From the IMG/VR virus record IMGVR_UViG_3300012940_000057, positions 1 through 36,753 of that record: a stretch of DNA of 36,753 nucleotides; one strand, given 5' to 3'. Source of the stretch: a virus (lineage: Duplodnaviria; Caudoviricetes). Below are positions 1-35,496 of this stretch, piece by piece. Position 1 is the stretch's first letter. Every line of letters starts with the position of its first letter. The notes under the pieces are model-generated. The model searched no databases. It had not been told where the DNA came from and saw nothing but the letters and a program-made list of their open reading frames with translations. A program made the translations under genes and the position numbers.

Positions 1-1539
1 AATATTATTGTTGTTTTTGAAGGAAGTCGTTTGTTTCGTGATACTGATGAAAGTACACCAAGTTATACGTTCTTTGAAGAAAACGATATATTTGTAATTA
101 GTGTTAGTGATAATAAATTAAATACATTTATTGGAGGAAGTGACAAAACTCTAAGAAAAGTAAAAGAAGTTCTTGATGAAGCAGAAAGTGATACGAAAAG
201 TGCAAGGATGACTGCTTCAAAAGATCTAGGAAGAGAAGATGGCAGGTTTACTGGTGGACAATTACCATATGGTTTTACATGGGATAAAGTAAACAAAAAA
301 ATAATTGAAATTGAAGATCAAATAGAAGTTTACAAAATGATTTTTCATAAATATTTATATGAAGATAAAGGTGCTGTTGTAATTGCAAGAGAATTAAATG
401 AAATGCAAATTCCTTTTGTTGATAATCATCATGGGAAAAGAATTTCAAAATGGAATGATCAGAATGTCAGAAATCTTTTAATTAATCCTATCCTAACTGG
501 TCGGATTCAATATAAAAAATATATAGAAATTTTTGATGAAGAAAAAGGAAGGATTATTAAAAAAAGAAGAGATATTTTAGATGAACAATACATTAAAAAA
601 CATAAAGATTTAAAAGAACATATTTCATATGAAATGTGGAGAAAAGTTGTTGAAAAATTAGCATCAAGAAATAACAAAAAAATAAAAAGAAGCTTTTCAC
701 CTAGAACGTATATTCTTACCGGCTATGTGAAATGTCCTCATTGTTCCGAGATTATGAAAGGTCAAAACAAAGGAGGAAAAGACAAAAATGGTGAACCTAG
801 AATTTACTATATTTGTTCAAACAATTTATGTACTGGTTATCCTAAATCTTTTCCTAAAAATTTACTTGAAAAAGAAGTTATTCGTCAAATAAAAGAATAT
901 CTTTATCTTGATGAAAATGATATTGAAAACATAAAAAAAGAAATACAAACATTCATTGAAAGTGAATCAGTCCAAACAATAGAAGCTGGTAATATTGAAA
1001 AGGAAATTTCGAATATTCAGAAGAGTTTGGATAGCTTAGAAAACCAAATGGATGAATCTGTAAAAAATGGTACTCCAATGAATTTAACAACATATTTAGA
1101 ACTAAAAGAAAAATATACCAATATGATTGCAGAAAAACAAAAAGAATTATTTTCCTTAAATAATCAAAACAAAAATCGGGAAAATGCGAAAAATAATTTC
1201 GATCAAGCATTGGAAGCGATTGAATCATTATACAATTTTTGTGATAATTATACAGAAGAGAATCAACCTTTGTATAGAAAAATTATCCAACTTTTAGTTA
1301 AAGAAGTAGTAAAAAAAGATGGGAGAATTACTGTAGTATTTAATGAAGAATTAAATGAAGATGGTATTATTGGATTAGAAGAATTTATGAATGATGAACT
1401 TTTTGAATCGTTCAAAGAAATATCGGCAACTATCGAAAATTTTGGTACACATACAACACCCATACATGGGGTTATGATGTATACACCAGTGGTCTACCAA
1501 CATGTTTTTTACATCTTAAATAACCTTGTCAAAATATAA
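1..1539 (+). CDS. Large serine recombinase/integrase, 5'-truncated by the window edge
   Basis: Frame is open from base 1 (NIIVVFEGSRLFRD, the S-R-L-x-R motif). Recombinase domain G-G-x-x-PYG...L.NP.LTG, zinc ribbon LTGYVKCPHC...YYIC...C, then a coiled coil. Confidence 0.9.
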   Translation, partial: NIIVVFEGSRLFRDTDESTPSYTFFEENDIFVISVSDNKLNTFIGGSDKTLRKVKEVLDEAESDTKSARMTASKDLGREDGRFTGGQLPYGFTWDKVNKKIIEIEDQIEVYKMIFHKYLYEDKGAVVIARELNEMQIPFVDNHHGKRISKWNDQNVRNLLINPILTGRIQYKKYIEIFDEEKGRIIKKRRDILDEQYIKKHKDLKEHISYEMWRKVVEKLASRNNKKIKRSFSPRTYILTGYVKCPHCSEIMKGQNKGGKDKNGEPRIYYICSNNLCTGYPKSFPKNLLEKEVIRQIKEYLYLDENDIENIKKEIQTFIESESVQTIEAGNIEKEISNIQKSLDSLENQMDESVKNGTPMNLTTYLELKEKYTNMIAEKQKELFSLNNQNKNRENAKNNFDQALEAIESLYNFCDNYTEENQPLYRKIIQLLVKEVVKKDGRITVVFNEELNEDGIIGLEEFMNDELFESFKEISATIENFGTHTTPIHGVMMYTPVVYQHVFYILNNLVKI

Positions 1540-1694: not shown

Positions 1695-2564
1695 ATGTTA
1701 AATGTAGTAATTGTCGTAAACAAAAATTCTTTTAATGAATCTTCTCTAAATAATAATGAAAACAATATTGTTTTTCAATTAATGAAAAGTGCTATACAAA
1801 ATAATTACAATGTCGTAGCATCAATTATTCCAAATAAAAAACTTGCTGTTAATGAAATAATTCCGTATATTTATGCAAATACCCAAGAAAAGTTTGACGG
1901 TCTTTATTTTGTAAATAAATCAAATATTGCTTCTACTAATGATGATGTTAGTCGTTTTGTTTTTTTAGCTGATAATATGAACATACAAATTATTACAGAA
2001 AAAGAAGGAAATTTGAGTGAGGAATTTAATTCAAACAAGAAAGCAATACTTGAAAAACAAGCTGAAAAAAGAGCATCAACTTCTTTTGAAACAAAAATTA
2101 AAATAAACAATCAAGGTTTTTATACAGGTGGGAAAACACCTTTCGGTTACAATGTTACTCTTGAAGGTCGATTTGAAATAAATGAAGATGAAGCAATTAT
2201 TATTAAAGAAATATTTGAACTATACAAAAGAGGATTAAGAGCAGTTAATATTTCACGCTACATTGGTGATATTTATAAACTTAAATATAAAGGTGATAAC
2301 AGCTATTGGAAATCAGATAGAATTTTTGGATACTTGTCTAACCCTATCTATAATGGCTATCCTACTACAAATAGAACCACTAAAAATGAAAAAGGCAATA
2401 CAGTTAATTTACCTAGATGTGAATGGAAAATTTCGCCTGTGGCTTTTGAGGAATATAAAATTATTGATGACGAAACATTCAAAGCAGTACAAGAAAGATT
2501 ATGGAAAGAAGATAAGGATAGACCATTAGACTACCGTTTAGAATGGGAAGAAAAAATTAGTTAA
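1695..2564 (+). CDS. Serine-recombinase-family protein with degenerate catalytic domain and no zinc ribbon
   Basis: GFYTGGKTPFGY...EAIIIKEIFELY...LSNPIYNG...IIDDETFKAVQ recombinase domain. The N-terminus lacks YxRxS and SRLxR. RBS AAAGGAG. Confidence 0.8.
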   Translation: MLNVVIVVNKNSFNESSLNNNENNIVFQLMKSAIQNNYNVVASIIPNKKLAVNEIIPYIYANTQEKFDGLYFVNKSNIASTNDDVSRFVFLADNMNIQIITEKEGNLSEEFNSNKKAILEKQAEKRASTSFETKIKINNQGFYTGGKTPFGYNVTLEGRFEINEDEAIIIKEIFELYKRGLRAVNISRYIGDIYKLKYKGDNSYWKSDRIFGYLSNPIYNGYPTTNRTTKNEKGNTVNLPRCEWKISPVAFEEYKIIDDETFKAVQERLWKEDKDRPLDYRLEWEEKIS

Positions 2565-8126: not shown

Positions 8127-9230
8127 TTAAAGATACTCTCCTATCTTGTTGGACATTTGTTGCATAAATAATAGTCCTATATCGGCTTTAAAATCACTTT
8201 GAGTAGCAATAATCGCTCTAGTAGTATTAAATAACCCATGTTCTTCAATGATCTTAGCTAATGCTAATTTAGCTGGTTTTGATAATGCTCCTAATTCTTC
8301 TTGTAAATAAGAAGTCATTTGTATTATATCTTTATCATATTTCTTTAATAAATCTTCCTGATTCTTAGATAGTTCTTCTAAAGCAAAAATCTCTTCTATC
8401 TCACTTTGTTCTTCTTTATCTTCCTTGACAGATACAGCAGTAGTTTCCACAATTCTTTGTAGTAACTTATCTTTCAAAGATCCAAATTTTTCTCCGATTG
8501 TATTAACTGGTGGATTAGAAGGAATTTTAATAACTTCGTCAGTAGTTTCTGTACTTACTTCTTTTTTGCTTAAATGTAAATGCTTACTAGATACATTAAT
8601 TTTTTTAATATCTACATAACAAATTTTGACCTTATGCAAGACTTGACCAACTTCTAGATAATCTTTTACATCATTAATATAACCGTCTACTATCTCCGAG
8701 ATATGTAATAAAGCATTAAAACCTTTACCATCTAATATTTCTACAAAAGCACCATAACTTTGTATATTGGCAACTTTAACATCTACTAATTGATTTAATT
8801 TATAATAATCTTTGGGAGATGTAAAAATTTTATCTACTGGTTTTTCCGCAAATTTTTGTATATCTTCATCTACAGAATTAATTTTAAGCAAAGGATTCTT
8901 TGGTTCTTTTTCTTTTGTAATGGGAACTGCTTCTTTTATTTCTAGTTTAATACTATCTAAAGAAACAACTTTGTTTTCCTTTTTATCTTCATTTTCAGCA
9001 CTTTTTTTTACTAATACAGATACTCTATTTGGTTTAGCATTTACTTTGACTTCTTTGTAATATCTATTTTTTAAAGTTCCAAAAGGAACATTGTATTTCT
9101 CACTCAATTTTTCTAAAAAGGGCTTCAATTCTCCACGTTCAAAACCATCATTTTCCTCTTTCATAATTAACTCATTTACTGCAATATCAACTTCTTCTTT
9201 AGATAACCTTTCTTTTGTAATATTTGACAT
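8127..9230 (-). CDS. S1 RNA-binding domain protein with N-terminal HTH-like region
   Basis: S1 signature VKVANIQSYGAFVEI...ALLHISEIVDGYINDVKDYLEVGQ. RBS AGGAGG. Confidence 0.85.
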   Translation of the reverse strand: MSNITKERLSKEEVDIAVNELIMKEENDGFERGELKPFLEKLSEKYNVPFGTLKNRYYKEVKVNAKPNRVSVLVKKSAENEDKKENKVVSLDSIKLEIKEAVPITKEKEPKNPLLKINSVDEDIQKFAEKPVDKIFTSPKDYYKLNQLVDVKVANIQSYGAFVEILDGKGFNALLHISEIVDGYINDVKDYLEVGQVLHKVKICYVDIKKINVSSKHLHLSKKEVSTETTDEVIKIPSNPPVNTIGEKFGSLKDKLLQRIVETTAVSVKEDKEEQSEIEEIFALEELSKNQEDLLKKYDKDIIQMTSYLQEELGALSKPAKLALAKIIEEHGLFNTTRAIIATQSDFKADIGLLFMQQMSNKIGEYL

Positions 9231-10093: not shown

Positions 10094-10394
10094 AAAAAGT
10101 ATGAAATATTTAATACATTTTGTTTAAAAAGTGTTGAGATTTTTAAACAATTTATCTTAAAAAAGTATGATATTTTGTTTAAATATTTATGATCATACTT
10201 TTTGTTGCAATTTTGTTTAAATATTTAAGACAAATTGCATCACTTTTTATGAGTTCATACTTTTGTATGAAATTTTGCATAAATATTTCACACCCTTAAA
10301 TCTTTATGTTTAATCCCTTTTAATTATTCCTGATTAGAATTATTTTTTTAAAATAAAACAAAAAATAAAAAGTATGAAAAAATTCATACCTTTT
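10094..10394. repeat. AT-rich array of direct and inverted repeats
   Basis: AAAAAGTATGA at 10094, 10160, 10367 with inverted copies at 10193, 10255, 10383. ATTTTGTTTAAATATTTA exact at 10172 and 10210, variants at 10117 and 10272. Confidence 0.8.
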
Positions 10395-12168: not shown

Positions 12169-12339
12169 TTAACTCCAAGTAATTTGTTCTAACTCATATT
12201 GAAGGCAAGCCAAACAAATCAAATCTTCATTCCTGTATACAGAAACATTGTTAAGAATGGTATCATTCCACAGAATATACTTAGGCTTTGGAACTAAAAT
12301 CACATGATCATTTGATTCACCGCAGTAATCACAATTCAT
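12169..12339 (-). CDS. Small zinc-finger-like protein (56 aa, not in ORF track)
   Basis: MNCDYCGESNDHV...LICLACLQYELEQITWS. RBS GAAAGGGG. Fills the gap between neighbours. Confidence 0.65.
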   Translation of the reverse strand: MNCDYCGESNDHVILVPKPKYILWNDTILNNVSVYRNEDLICLACLQYELEQITWS

Positions 12340-12396: not shown

Positions 12397-12855
12397 TCAC
12401 AAATTGTATTTAATTTTTGTTTTTTCTAACCCTTCATTCGCTAACTGATCTGCTAAATCATTCAATTCAATTCCCGAATGAGCCTTGACTTTAAAAAATG
12501 TTATATTCTCTTGCTGTTCCACCAACTCAATTAATTCTTTCCACAAGTCAACATTTTTTACTCTACCCTTCGTTGTTTTCCAGTTGTTCAGCAACCAATT
12601 TCGATACCAGCCTTTATTAAAACAATTGACAATATATAGACTGTCACTATATATTTCAACAGGAATATGAGTAGTAGTAATACATTTTAAAGCTTCAATA
12701 CAAGCTTTTAATTCCATTCGATTATTGCTTGTATCTCTTTCTCCCCCACAAATTTCTTTCTTATGATCTTTATATATTAAGACAGCACCCCATCCACCCA
12801 CTTGATTCTTATGGATATGACAAGCACCGTCTGTATAAATAATTATTTTTGTCAT
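12397..12855 (-). CDS. rnhA: Ribonuclease HI
   Basis: IYTDGAC, GGWG, TSNNRMELKA, YSDS.Y, VKNVDLW, KVKAHSG...N..AD.LA. Confidence 0.95.
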   Translation of the reverse strand: MTKIIIYTDGACHIHKNQVGGWGAVLIYKDHKKEICGGERDTSNNRMELKACIEALKCITTTHIPVEIYSDSLYIVNCFNKGWYRNWLLNNWKTTKGRVKNVDLWKELIELVEQQENITFFKVKAHSGIELNDLADQLANEGLEKTKIKYNL

Positions 12856-12865
12856 TCTCCACCTC

Positions 12866-12940
12866 TAAGGAAAAATAAAAAGCAAAAAAGAAAGGCACTT
12901 TCCGCAACCTTTCTTTTTTGTTTGTTCATCTTATTTCCTA
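12866..12940 (-). terminator. Long terminator-like hairpin immediately 5' of the rnhA RBS
   Basis: CAAAAAAGAAAGG(12883-12895)/CCTTTCTTTTTTG(12908-12920), extendable by 12866-12878/12931-12940. Confidence 0.75.
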
Positions 12941-13330
12941 AAGACAAAGGGAGAGTGATCTCAGTGTTAAAGCTAGTTTTACGTTAGTAGCCATTTTTGA
13001 ACTAGAAGCATAAATTTTTTGTGAAAAGCACTCAAAGTTGTATAAAATATTTTTTTTGGCTAACACTAATAAATAGGACTTATTTTGTCTTGACAGCATA
13101 ATTATCATCTATTGAGGGAGAAATCTTTATGCCAAACAACAACACTAGTTCAAAACACATTAGTCGGATTCTTAGGCATTAACATAGCAAGTCAACCATT
13201 AATAATGAAATATACAGCACATACCTTTATATAACAACACAGGAAGAACAATATTCATTATTAGTGTAGAAAAAAATATTTATCAACTTTGAGTAAGCTT
13301 TTCTTACAATCTGTCTGTTAACTGATTGTA
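12866..13330 (-). ncRNA. Candidate large structured non-coding RNA or leader (unknown family; strand inferred from context)
   Basis: Several 7-11 bp perfect long-range complements in two interleaved stems, flanked by hairpins. No ORF of 60 aa or more is contained in it. Confidence 0.55.
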
Positions 13331-13358
13331 ATATTACTATTTACATCTTTGAAAGGTT

Positions 13359-13640
13359 TTATTCAATCTTTTTATAAATTTCTGCAATTCCTTGATGAAT
13401 GACAAATATCTTGCCATCTTTCACATAAATTATTTTCCCAAAATAATTTGTCAAGTTGATATGTAGAGGGTTTTTCAAAATATAAATCCCCCTATATACA
13501 ATATCGTCTATGTTTAAATGATTATTGTTTATCGGATACAATTTGAAAATTTGTTGTCTTGATAAATATTTATTGATTGTAACAAGACATTCAAAAGAAC
13601 AATCATTTATTTTGTTGGTAACATAAGCGTGAATTAACAT
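13359..13640 (-). CDS. Hypothetical protein
   Basis: 93-aa ORF with RBS AAGGAG, co-oriented with neighbours. Confidence 0.6.
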   Translation of the reverse strand: MLIHAYVTNKINDCSFECLVTINKYLSRQQIFKLYPINNNHLNIDDIVYRGIYILKNPLHINLTNYFGKIIYVKDGKIFVIHQGIAEIYKKIE

Positions 13641-14342: not shown

Positions 14343-14450
14343 ATCTGAACCTCCTTTGATATTATTGTTTGCAGTTCTAAAATTTTTATCCAAATTTATT
14401 TTGAAAGTACATAATAAAAATAGTATGGGGCATAATATAAAATTAAAAAA

Positions 14451-14477
14451 AAGTGTAGTGAAAAAATCACTACACTT
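14451..14477 (-). terminator. Intrinsic terminator after thyA
   Basis: AAGTGTAGTGA/TCACTACACTT stem with a T tail on the - strand. Confidence 0.8.
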
Positions 14478-14519
14478 CAACGCTTATCGTTCAGCGATAG
14501 CAAAGAGGGATTGGATGGA

Positions 14520-32557: not shown

Positions 32558-33553
32558 TTATTTTTTTTTTACATGTGGATAATACTTAAAAATATTTTCC
32601 TCATTTAAATAATCTCTCATAGTCCAATGTTCTCTGACTCCAAAATGTTTACAGATCATTCTGATTTGAGCAATTTCAATTTTTCCATATTCTTCATAAA
32701 GCTTACTTGCCATATATAGCTGTCCACTTTTAACAATATTTTTTATCGTAATTTTATGTTTAACAGGTTCTACTTCTTGGAATTTCTGTATATTTTTTAA
32801 ACGATTATAAATTGTATATTTTGTAGCTTTATCAGTATAAACAGTACGTGTCTTACTATTTTTCAAAATATAATTGGTATCTGTAATTAATTCTGTAAAT
32901 GGTTTAATCCTGGGATTTACTTCCATTTCTCCATTACGTTTATCATAATGTTCTTCTTTGTTTGCCTTTTTACAGTATTCAAATACTTTTTCATCATTCA
33001 AAAAGATAGTCCTTCTTGTATTTGTTTCACTATCATACAAGTTCATACTCATAGTATTTTCATCAATATCTTCTAACTTTAAATTGCAAAGTTCGCTACC
33101 TTCTTTTCCTTGAACTCCATGAAAAAGCAGTTCTAAAATAACCCCATCTTGATAATTTTGAAAATAAAAATGAGTAAAATATCTTAATTCTTTAATGGTC
33201 AAAAATTGATCTTCATGAGATTTTACATATTTTAAAAAGTAATGTTGTTGTGCTGGAAACGGATGCTCTTTGATTATTCCTTCTTCAACAGCCCATGCAA
33301 TATATTGAATGACCATTCTTCCATAGTTCCGAGCAGAAATTGGAGTTGACGGTGTAGTTTTTTCAAAAAATTCATCTAATTGATTTTTATTAAAAAGATA
33401 TAAATCTTTATTCAGCTCTCCCTCCATTTCAAAAGTATTTCTAAATATTCGCATAAATGCCCTTTGAGTATTAATATTTGTATACTTATTAAGAAATTTC
33501 ATCTTATCTTTGATATTATATACATTTGTAAAATCTAATTGGTTATCCACCAT
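32558..33553 (-). CDS. Tyrosine-recombinase-fold protein, SPbeta YopR/MrpR-like repressor
   Basis: K.KFL.KY, E..L.KDLY.F, NYQD.VI.ELLF.G..G...SEL.NL...DI, T.KNI..SG.L.MA pattern and size recalled from YopR. Lacks the R and HxxR catalytic motifs. Confidence 0.75.
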   Translation of the reverse strand: MVDNQLDFTNVYNIKDKMKFLNKYTNINTQRAFMRIFRNTFEMEGELNKDLYLFNKNQLDEFFEKTTPSTPISARNYGRMVIQYIAWAVEEGIIKEHPFPAQQHYFLKYVKSHEDQFLTIKELRYFTHFYFQNYQDGVILELLFHGVQGKEGSELCNLKLEDIDENTMSMNLYDSETNTRRTIFLNDEKVFEYCKKANKEEHYDKRNGEMEVNPRIKPFTELITDTNYILKNSKTRTVYTDKATKYTIYNRLKNIQKFQEVEPVKHKITIKNIVKSGQLYMASKLYEEYGKIEIAQIRMICKHFGVREHWTMRDYLNEENIFKYYPHVKKK

Positions 33554-33585
33554 ATTCTTCACCTTTTCCGTTGTTTGTTATTTAT

Positions 33586-33939: not shown

Positions 33940-34359
33940 TCATAATAATGATACAATTCCTAGTATGCCCGATCCCATTCCTAATATGCTAAGAATTACT
34001 ATATATATCCCCATCCGTCTGAATTGTCTAAATTTTAAAACATTGAAAATATTCCAGCCATTTATTAAAATTGCACCAATATTACAAATGATCAAATATA
34101 TGTTTGCAAAAGGTATTAATTCCGGATAAAAGACAACAGATAAGCCAGTTAATATCATTGATCCTAAAAATACAAACATGGTAATAAAAACAATTTTCAA
34201 TCTTCTTTTATGTATTTCATATGCCTTGATTTCCGTTTCAAGCATTTTATTGATCATTTCTATATGTATGTCAAAATTTGATATGCCTTCTAATTGTTTT
34301 TTTATAATTATGTCTGTAATGTCAATGACAGTATTATTTGAATCTTCTTTTTCATTCAA
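33940..34359 (-). CDS. Membrane protein with about 3 TM helices
   Basis: Three hydrophobic segments in the C-terminal half. RBS AAGGGTGG. Confidence 0.7.
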   Translation of the reverse strand: MNEKEDSNNTVIDITDIIIKKQLEGISNFDIHIEMINKMLETEIKAYEIHKRRLKIVFITMFVFLGSMILTGLSVVFYPELIPFANIYLIICNIGAILINGWNIFNVLKFRQFRRMGIYIVILSILGMGSGILGIVSLL

Positions 34360-34443
34360 GGATTATCCACCCTTTCTTCATCAAGTGTAAATTCAATTCT
34401 TTTCATCTTTTTGAAATTCCACCGAAAATGATATGTAGATTCT
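34356..34443 (-). CDS. Exon 2 of intron-split hypothetical gene
   Basis: Joins exon 1 in frame: GT|A GAA TCT gives VESTYHFRWNFKKMKRIEFTLDEERVDNP*. The stop overlaps the next start. Confidence 0.75.
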
Positions 34444-34987
34444 ATAGTGATAGGTAGGTTTCATCTTCACCATTATGTGTTAAGACTACTCCCTTTCCCC
34501 CACTCCACACCGTACGTGCGACTTTCACCGCATACGGCGTTCCCTATTTCCTAGTATAAGTAATACTTAGGTGCTTCCTATAAGCCTGTTGGTTTATATT
34601 GTCATTGTTCAATATAAGGTTTTTCATAGGATGTATTATTACTCAACCTCACCAACGTCACTCTATGTGACTAAACAATCATCCCAGATTGTCAATCGGA
34701 TTATAGACTCGTACATTCGGAAGTTCGTCAGTGGTTTTAAACCACATTCTCACCATATATTACTACCACCCACTTACTCTAACTTCTTGTTCTTATTCCA
34801 ATTGGTTTCAGTGACTTTATCCTGCTCTATACTACATCTTAATGGTTTAATTTGTAGCATAAGGAAGTATCAGTGTAGAAGTTTCAAGGTAACATGACAC
34901 CTATCATTCCTTCTATCGGAAATACAGTTTTCTAATAAGCAATCCCAAAGAATATTTCTATTCTAATTTCATGCTAACGCTTCGCAC
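34444..34987 (-). mobile_element. Group II intron, ORF-less, 544 nt, apparently internally deleted
   Basis: 5' GTGCG at 34987. Domain V ACGCCGTATGCGGTGAAAGTCGCACGTACGGTGT (34540-34507). Domain VI ends CCTATCACTAT at 34444. EBS1 ACATCC (34634-34629) is complementary to exon end GGATGT. Confidence 0.92.
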
Positions 34988-35496
34988 ACATCCCATCCAT
35001 ATAAATTTCTCAATCGTTTTTGTTTCCAATTTTCTTCTAATTCTTCCCCATAATAAGGATCACCAAAAAAACCACCCCCATGCCTTGTAACTTTTTGACC
35101 ATATGATGTTAGATGTACTGCATCATAATCCTGTGACATTTTTTCAAAATCAATACCTTCTTTTTCTAAATCAGGAAAATCTTCAAATAGATTATACCCA
35201 TATTTATCAAACAAAACGTGCATGTCTTTTAAAGAATCAATAATATAAATTTTTAAATCATCTTTCGGTTCTAATAAACAACCTCTCCATTTTCCATTAA
35301 GATACGAATAAAGATTTGTTTGCTTGCAGAATTGAATCCATTCACTACCTAATTCTTCCCCTAACCATGTTGAAGTCCATAGTCCTCCTGTACCTTTAAT
35401 ACCGGTTCTATAATTTTTTACAGGCTGAATTAAATCCTTATGCAAGGGCAGATGATAATCTTCACTTACCCATAATTGAGTTGATAATTTAAACAT
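34988..35496 (-). CDS. Exon 1 of intron-split hypothetical phage protein (198 aa if spliced)
   Basis: KGTGGLWTS...SEW...IDFEKM...YDAVHLT...LYGWD. Unspliced, it ends 7 codons into the intron at 34969. Confidence 0.8.

What the first reader, a model, noticed from the sequence alone, without database searches (positions are those of the whole stretch)
12866..13330. Candidate novel large structured RNA with two interleaved long helices directly upstream of RNase H
Seen in ~460 bp of non-coding DNA. Stem A pairs 13023-13072 with 13258-13303 (GAAAAGC/GCTTTTC, ACTCAAAGTTG/CAACTTTGAGT, AAATATTTTTTT/AAAAAAATATTT, ACACTAATAA/TTATTAGTGT). Stem B pairs 12965-13014 with 13126-13184 (TGTTAA/TTAACA, TTTTGAACTAG/CTAGTTCAAAA, GCATAAA/TTTATGC). 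The arms alternate A-B-A'-B', giving either a giant pseudoknot or two alternative folds. Further pairings: AAGACAAA(12941)/TTTGTCTT(13084), TAATAATGAA(13200)/TTCATTATTA(13254, competing with stem A), a hairpin at 13304-13330, and a long terminator ending at the rnhA RBS. The - strand carries two CTCCCT anti-SD-like motifs. I do not recognise the family. Inference: a phage ncRNA or conformational attenuator controlling read-through into rnhA, or an RNA/ssDNA element working with RNase H (for example primer or R-loop control). This is the best candidate in the window for an undescribed system.
Basis: partly seen in the sequence, partly recalled or inferred. Interest (0 to 1): 0.8.

Follow-up and report, generated by a model that had tools for sequence, protein, structure and literature searches.

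The report
Long-range RNA switch before phage rnhA
A group of uncultured SPbeta-like phages keeps a roughly 490-base non-coding stretch with one long conserved stem and a terminator-like hairpin just before its RNase H gene, and this is likely an undescribed RNA on/off switch whose first bases are predicted to pair with the terminator 450 bases away and would let transcription continue.

Summary
The stretch 12856-13358 is a real, conserved structured element on the minus strand of an SPbeta/Sundance-like phage. Two homologs (L081, L082) lie at the same place, between a clade-specific 93-aa gene and rnhA. Stem A is confirmed: 42-52 bp in all three, with own arms pairing better than swapped arms. 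A 5' hairpin, a terminator hairpin and pairings that cover the rnhA ribosome-binding site are also kept. Stem B exists in the window but is not conserved, so the giant pseudoknot is not supported. New here: the bases directly behind the upstream stop codon are complementary to the terminator's 5' arm (8 bp window, 16 bp L081, only 6 bp L082). Best reading (about 0.5): a mid-operon attenuator with a long-range antiterminator that works like the zipper-type attenuator of plasmid pLS20 but fails that family's geometry and context tests. Main rival (about 0.25): a stand-alone phage ncRNA. No Rfam match. Only three homologs and no expression data. The scan noted a zipper-like leader in another phage (e1-2911397), not this element.

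The parts
13359..13640 (-). 93-aa clade-specific ORF; its stop codon abuts the element in all three phages
   Evidence: no Pfam or PHROG family; AlphaFold model unreliable, pLDDT 57
13351..13358 (-). Candidate antiterminator: first 8 nt after the stop codon, complementary to the terminator 5' arm (12906-12913)
   Evidence: window 8 bp, L081 16 bp, L082 6 bp (weak)
13304..13331 (-). 5' hairpin P1, conserved; G-U pairs favour the minus strand
13258..13303 (-). Stem A, 5' arm
13073..13257 (-). Variable interior (158-185 nt, 30-41% identity), predicted hairpins differ between phages; holds a conserved GUUGU...CAU...CUCC module at about 13114-13143
13023..13072 (-). Stem A, 3' arm
13004..13010 (-). 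Conserved YGCUUCU motif; pairs with the rnhA Shine-Dalgarno in the consensus fold
   Evidence: columns 389-395 with 549-555; 6 of 7 pairs kept in all three, no two-sided change
12987..12994 (-). Invariant AUGGCUAC motif, no conserved partner found
12951..12962 (-). Small invariant 4-bp hairpin with variable tetraloop, including the second CUCC motif
12937..12949 (-). Second candidate anti-SD strand; extends the terminator hairpin down over the rnhA ribosome-binding site
   Evidence: (10, 2 and 8 of 300 shuffles)
12870..12920 (-). Intrinsic-terminator-like hairpin (12883-12920) with U-tract, A-tract in front (bidirectional shape)
   Evidence: flagged on both strands in L081 and L082; not flagged by the scan's rule in the window
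12397..12866 (-). rnhA (RNase HI, 152 aa, 12397-12855) with its Shine-Dalgarno at 12860-12866

Best explanation
The element is a conserved structured stretch between two genes of a phage operon that likely acts, as RNA, as a transcription attenuator with an added block on translation of rnhA. Shown: the long stem A, hairpin P1, the terminator-shaped hairpin and the pairings over the rnhA ribosome-binding site are kept in three diverged phages on the sense strand. Inferred: RNA polymerase arriving from the 93-aa gene makes the antiterminator first. Stem A then folds about 280 nt away, which brings the two ends close. If the bases behind the stop codon capture the terminator's 5' arm before the 3' arm emerges, polymerase reads into rnhA and up to four further genes (next terminator-like hairpin near 10365). 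Otherwise it stops, or the refolded RNA hides the ribosome-binding site. The trigger is unknown. The likeliest is masking of the antiterminator, by a ribosome at the adjoining stop codon or by a phage protein that binds the invariant unpaired motifs.
For: Same position and architecture in 3 of 3 clade members; nhmmer E 4e-28 and 2e-14. Stem A own arms -40.8, -34.3, -54.1 kcal/mol versus swapped arms -18.9 to -30.8, and 0 of 300 shuffles each. Sense strand folds better by 10.0, 13.6 and 23.8 kcal/mol. No room for a promoter between terminator and rnhA start (about 15 nt), and no conserved sigma-70-type match inside the element, so rnhA likely depends on read-through. Antiterminator duplex: L081 -21.3 kcal/mol, 0 of 1470 background tiles as good; window -10.7, 26 of 1470; shuffles 1 and 0 of 300. 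In RNA cut at the terminator loop, the forced antiterminator costs 0.0 kcal/mol in the window and in L081. Masking the first 13 nt lowers its pairing from 0.86 to 0.25 and 0.10. In L082 a G-to-A change in the terminator arm is matched by a changed 5' segment that still pairs over 6 bp. The architecture resembles a tested attenuator (PMC13401043).
Against: L082's antiterminator is weak: -6.1 kcal/mol, 272 of 1470 tiles as good, 32 of 300 shuffles, and 13.0 kcal/mol above the terminator fold (11.8 for an alternative through P1). The window's antiterminator is 7.2 kcal/mol above the terminator fold at equilibrium. Shuffling stem A's 5' arm does not lower the equilibrium antiterminator pairing (0.85 and 0.86, 12 shuffles each), so a role for stem A would have to be kinetic. 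With the first 13 nt masked, the terminator arm still pairs with something else (0.58 and 0.85). Window and L081 share the 8-bp core by descent, so they are not independent. Segments were picked after looking. A 490-nt element with invariant unpaired motifs is more than an attenuator needs. Element identity (47-59%) is no higher than two other intergenic stretches (61%, 54%). B. subtilis polymerase outpaces ribosomes (review PMC7858274, passage), which weakens ribosome control.
Confidence: 0.5

Rival explanations
1. The element is a stand-alone phage non-coding RNA of about 430-470 nt. It ends at the terminator, is cut from the 3' end of the upstream message or made from an unrecognised phage promoter, and acts in trans as a protein scaffold or sponge, or as an anti-translation RNA through its two CUCC modules. 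rnhA is then served by leaky read-through.
For: Size, closed ends and invariant motifs with no conserved cis partner. Both CUCC motifs are conserved and each lies 8-10 nt downstream of a CAU or CAC, so each module is the reverse complement of a ribosome-binding site plus start codon in all three phages (read). The terminator fold wins at equilibrium in 2 of 3. Large phage RNAs of unknown function exist (PMC12286853, passages).
Against: The interior is the least conserved part (30-41%) and folds differently in each phage, unlike an ornate structural RNA. No conserved promoter match. No convincing trans target in the 36.7 kb held. The 16-bp end pairing in L081 competes with the terminator that would make the 3' end.
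Confidence: 0.25
2. Stem A is a processing or stability signal (an RNase III-type double-stranded site) and the terminator is an ordinary leaky one that steps expression down. The 5' complementarity is incidental.
For: Stem A is the best-supported feature and is kept as a helix, not as a sequence. The antiterminator is poor in L082. That RNase III cuts long stems in Bacillus phage mRNAs is recalled, not from a call.
Against: Does not explain the 16-bp perfect duplex in L081 (0 of 1470 tiles), which runs beyond what the terminator's own 3' arm matches, nor the invariant motifs of the 3' domain.
Confidence: 0.13
3. The element is a primer or R-loop RNA, or a retron-like decoy, that works with the RNase H encoded next to it.
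For: Fixed adjacency to rnhA in 3 of 3 clade members. A long stem closing hairpins looks like the outer repeat of retron RNAs (recalled). In the window the interior module pairs best with rnhA coding sequence (rank 1 of 3621 tiles).
Against: That duplex is not repeated in L081 or L082 (best tile near there ranks 15th of 491 and 15th of 235). No reverse transcriptase among the neighbouring proteins scanned (not all ORFs were scanned). No GC-skew change at the site. rnhA of Perkons, E3 and vB_BcoS-136 has only 33, 33 and 1 nt upstream.
Confidence: 0.06
4. The element acts as DNA: a MITE-like insert with terminal inverted repeats, a cruciform or an origin.
For: The end complementarity can be read as terminal inverted repeats (8-16 bp). 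In the window stem A has no G-U pair and is equally stable on both strands.
Against: Single copy in the contig; syntenic in phages whose flanking genes are 65-74% identical; homologs use G-U pairs that favour one strand (stem A 3 vs 1 and 5 vs 2; P1 -13.5 vs -5.0 and -7.3 vs -3.2).
Confidence: 0.04

Closest known systems
Zipper-type attenuator cATT of plasmid pLS20 (PMC13401043; read: abstract, introduction, start of methods, result sections 25-27, discussion; supplements not opened)
   Same: Upstream hairpin region, long imperfect stem, then an intrinsic terminator right before a Shine-Dalgarno; an upstream segment complementary to the terminator's 5' arm; Bacillales mobile element; conserved sequence suggesting an unknown trans factor.
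   Different: Lies mid-operon in a phage, not in a conjugation leader before conAn1. The long stem encloses 158-185 nt, whereas about 90 nt separate SL-2 and terminator in pLS20. The antiterminator does not extend the long stem directly: P1 on one side and a domain of about 110 nt on the other intervene. It starts at the first base after a stop codon. Adds anti-SD pairings. No sequence likeness found (blastn of plasmids).
Large phage ncRNAs ROOL and GOLLD (PMC12286853; passages only)
   Same: Several hundred nt, phage-encoded, no protein partner known.
   Different: No Rfam hit; no tRNA in the window or loci; simple long stem with a variable interior rather than a conserved multi-pseudoknot core.
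Antisense-controlled attenuators of Gram-positive plasmids (pCF10 as mentioned in the discussion of PMC13401043; others recalled)
   Same: Long leader with alternative terminator and antiterminator folds; bidirectional-looking terminator.
   Different: No antisense promoter match conserved in all three: one near 13019-13048 in the window has a counterpart in L082 but none in L081.

Membership tests
Zipper-type attenuator (cATT) | [quoted passage not shown] | tested here: met
   Hairpin plus U-tract in 3 of 3; by sequence only
Zipper-type attenuator (cATT) | Long imperfect stem between antiterminator segment and terminator | tested here: met
   42-52 bp in 3 of 3
Zipper-type attenuator (cATT) | 3' strand of a weak upstream stem-loop is complementary to the terminator 5' stem and loop | tested here: inconclusive
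   The complementary segment lies upstream of P1 in window and L081; in L082 it is weak or involves P1's 5' strand
Zipper-type attenuator (cATT) | Antiterminator helix directly extends the long stem | tested here: not met
   About 47 nt including P1 and about 110 nt intervene; equilibrium pairing does not depend on stem A
Zipper-type attenuator (cATT) | In the 5' leader of a conjugation operon, upstream of conAn1 | tested here: not met
   Between a 93-aa ORF and rnhA in a phage replication region
Zipper-type attenuator (cATT) | Terminator and antiterminator folds of similar energy | tested here: inconclusive
   Difference 0.0 (L081), 7.2 (window), 11.8-13.0 (L082) kcal/mol
Zipper-type attenuator (cATT) | Attenuation shown by reporter or in vitro transcription | not testable with these tools
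   Needs bench work
Rfam families (ROOL, GOLLD, OLE, riboswitches, T-box, 6S, SRP, RNase P, tmRNA) | Covariance-model score at or above the gathering threshold | tested here: not met
   None at the element in window, L081 or L082; weak hits are far below threshold and mostly on the terminator; ARAGORN 0 genes
Retron ncRNA | Adjacent reverse transcriptase gene | tested here: not met
   Neighbours scanned are not RTs; the contig is about 23% of the genome
Type I toxin-antitoxin locus | Conserved small hydrophobic ORF on one strand | tested here: not met
   Plus-strand micro-ORFs are 7, 7, 7 aa and 17, 6, 40 aa, not hydrophobic and not conserved (short ones read by eye)
MITE | Several copies in the genome | tested here: not met
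   One copy in the 36.7 kb held
MITE | Target-site duplication | not tested
   No empty site available for comparison

The most novel reading that the evidence does not exclude
A new kind of dual-use phage RNA: a 490-nt element whose antiterminator starts at the upstream stop codon and reaches a terminator 450 nt away, so that translation of a small phage gene (or its protein) decides between making RNase H and releasing a large stable RNA that carries two anti-initiation modules (CAU-N8-10-CUCC) able to silence ribosome-binding sites in trans.
Probability: 0.15. Interest if true: 0.8.

Novelty: new variant of a known kind. Interest (0 to 1): 0.52.

Why it matters
It is a conserved phage RNA structure with no Rfam family and no description in the searches run (the one hit for zipper-type attenuators concerns plasmids). 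If the switch is real, it extends long-stem attenuation from plasmid leaders to the middle of a phage operon, with a reach of 450 nt. It would also give a clean test of whether a ribosome at a stop codon can control termination in Bacillales, where polymerase runs ahead of ribosomes. Its known range is narrow (one uncultured clade), which limits the weight.

Tried and rejected
Stem B and the giant pseudoknot: not conserved. Pairing of the interior module with rnhA coding sequence: window only. Kissing of the first CUCC with the terminator loop (125, 237, 14 of 300) or with the rnhA SD (21, 110, 88 of 300): not supported. Alternative helices at the inner end of stem A: mixed (60, 0, 16 and 2, 76, 36 of 300). 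Trans targets in the contig: nothing convincing. Expression: no RNA holder listed. Runs X7, X8, X9, X13 gave no cover of the element. More homologs: blastn of phages and plasmids gave only short chance pieces. DNA patterns in viral contigs found 0, 0, 0 and 2 stretches; the 2 did not score with the covariance model. The genome pattern found 12 stretches, none scoring. Protein scans of viral contigs for the 93-aa and S1-domain proteins found no relative. The metagenome scan read 36 of 64 parts. The 93-aa profile was not found in 401 Bacilli genomes; primase hits there and in 61 more were 36% identical. A model of the 3' half, built from three sequences, found nothing in Perkons, E3, vB_BcoS-136, Sundance, KKP_3916, Goe12, three prophage-bearing genomes (two with candidates only partly scored) and five IMG/VR records. 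The 93-aa and 230-aa proteins gave no family, solved relative or atlas lead (weak DUF1040 hit below cut-off), so a protein partner is unproven. The CASP16 paper (PMC12191101, passages) was irrelevant.

Full report
Context. The window is a whole 36,753-nt virus record, about 23% complete. Its minus strand carries a replication and nucleotide-metabolism region. The primase is nearest to Brevibacillus phage Sundance (46%), Alicyclobacillus phage KKP_3916 (42%) and SPbeta-like Goe phages (41%). The finding fills the gap 12856-13358 between a 93-aa ORF and rnhA. A terminator-like hairpin follows thyA at 14450-14478 and the next one below the element lies near 10365. The unit therefore reads: 230-276-aa ORF, 93-aa ORF, element, rnhA, 56-aa CxxC ORF, HTH gene, DUF1653 gene, Nudix gene.

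Observation. All listed helices exist. Stem A scores 62, against at most 32 in 100 shuffles and 36 in 89 other contig windows. The stem B core scores 22, within the range of second-best helices in shuffles (mean 18.4, maximum 26). Folding z-scores are -4.25 (minus) and -3.97 (plus). Rfam has no match at the element. Contigs from four studies carry identical pieces of it.

Homologs. A clade of 17 RNase H proteins at 65-74% identity exists. An alignment of them fetched 160 rnhA loci. nhmmer found the element in 2 of 160, L081 and L082, which are the only two loci above 60% protein identity. Both have the order 93-aa gene, element, rnhA. Equal contig lengths suggest the 93-aa gene and rnhA share two more contigs (inferred, DNA not seen). 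L081 and L082 fold with z = -3.75 and -5.70. Flanking genes are 65-74% identical at DNA level, the element 47-59% and its interior 30-41%; two other intergenic stretches are 61% and 54%. So it is the structure, not the overall sequence, that is conserved. Three cultured relatives have no such region before rnhA, and wider searches found no further copy (see Tried and rejected).

What is conserved. Stem A has 43, 42 and 52 bp. In a swap test each 5' arm pairs best with its own 3' arm (-40.8, -34.3, -54.1 versus -18.9 to -30.8 kcal/mol), with 0 of 300 shuffles reaching any of them. The consensus fold has 86 pairs, 11 with a two-sided change, but its covariation term is about zero (+0.7) because the sequence alignment is out of register in L082; three sequences cannot give a formal covariation test. 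P1 and the terminator are kept (0-1 of 300). The sense strand of rnhA folds better in all three, and G-U pairs in P1 and stem A of the homologs point the same way. The rnhA ribosome-binding site is covered in all three, either by the strand just before the terminator (10, 2, 8 of 300) or by the conserved YGCUUCU motif. Stem B is not kept (187 and 35 of 300 in the homologs).

The antiterminator. The first bases after the 93-aa stop codon are complementary to the terminator's 5' arm: 8 bp in the window, 16 bp in L081 and 6 bp in L082. Against 1470 background tiles these rank 26, 0 and 272. The L081 duplex runs past what the terminator's own 3' arm matches, so it is not a plain duplication of that arm. 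In RNA that ends at the terminator loop, the arm pairs with the 5' segment with probability 0.66-0.71 (window), about 0.9 (L081) and 0.01-0.35 (L082), depending on where the RNA is taken to start. Once the 3' arm is present the terminator wins by 7.2 (window), 0.0 (L081) and 11.8-13.0 (L082) kcal/mol. Masking 13 nt behind the stop codon removes most of the pairing in the window and L081, although the arm then finds other partners in part. Shuffling stem A does not change the equilibrium value. The switch is thus well supported in one phage, moderately in the window and weakly in the third.

Mechanism. Most likely (0.5) this is a cis attenuator with a translational lock: capture of the terminator arm during transcription gives read-through into rnhA; otherwise transcription stops or the ribosome-binding site is hidden. 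In the forced antiterminator fold the Shine-Dalgarno is freed in the window but not in L081 or L082, so relief of the translational block is not shown. The trigger is a guess. A ribosome at the adjoining stop codon fits the geometry, but B. subtilis polymerase outruns ribosomes (PMC7858274, passage). A phage protein on the invariant motifs is the other option. The main rival (0.25) is a stand-alone RNA: the element is larger than an attenuator needs, and its two CUCC modules are each the reverse complement of a ribosome-binding site plus start codon. The two readings can both hold.

Comparison. The closest tested system is the zipper-type attenuator of pLS20 (PMC13401043; abstract, introduction, sections 25-28 read). 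The element shares its three-part plan but fails two defining features: direct extension of the long stem, and position in a conjugation leader. It works like one; it is not a member. That paper's supplements were not opened and could list related leaders. ROOL, GOLLD, retron, type I toxin-antitoxin and MITE readings fail their tests (membership table). Literature searches returned no description of this element (listings and abstract starts only).

Verdict. A real, undescribed, clade-restricted structured RNA element. Novelty: new variant of a known kind. Interest 0.52.

Noticed in passing
window about 34438-34987 (-): Group II intron without an ORF (Rfam D1-D4 and domain V hits). It appears to interrupt the gene starting at 35496; by eye the frame resumes after about 34437 and ends near 34357. 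No maturase seen in the window.
   Followed up: partly
window 31-1539 and 1695-2564 (+): Two serine-recombinase-family genes in tandem, convergent with the replication operon, plus a tyrosine-recombinase-like gene at 32558-33562.
   Followed up: no
window 8127-9230 (-): 367-aa protein with a weak N-terminal helix-turn-helix hit and a central S1 RNA-binding domain, 63% identical in L081; a candidate RNA-binding regulator.
   Followed up: partly
window 12169-12339 (-): 56-aa ORF with two CxxC motifs right after rnhA, below the ORF-list cut-off; similar ORFs in L081 and L082; no Pfam hit. A perfect -10 hexamer lies in front of it (read), so it may have its own promoter.
   Followed up: partly
window 12961-12965 and 13114-13131 (+); L081 and L082 equivalents: On the plus strand both CUCC motifs read as strong ribosome-binding sites followed by a start codon; the first gives a 7-codon micro-ORF in all three phages. 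No plus-strand promoter was found to express them.
   Followed up: partly
terminator loops, window 12896-12905; L081, L082: All three terminator loops contain GGA, the loop motif bound by CsrA-type proteins (recalled).
   Followed up: no
L081 835-870: A 25-nt insertion after stem A creates a local 9-bp hairpin with the conserved YGCUUC motif, which would compete with its pairing to the Shine-Dalgarno.
   Followed up: no
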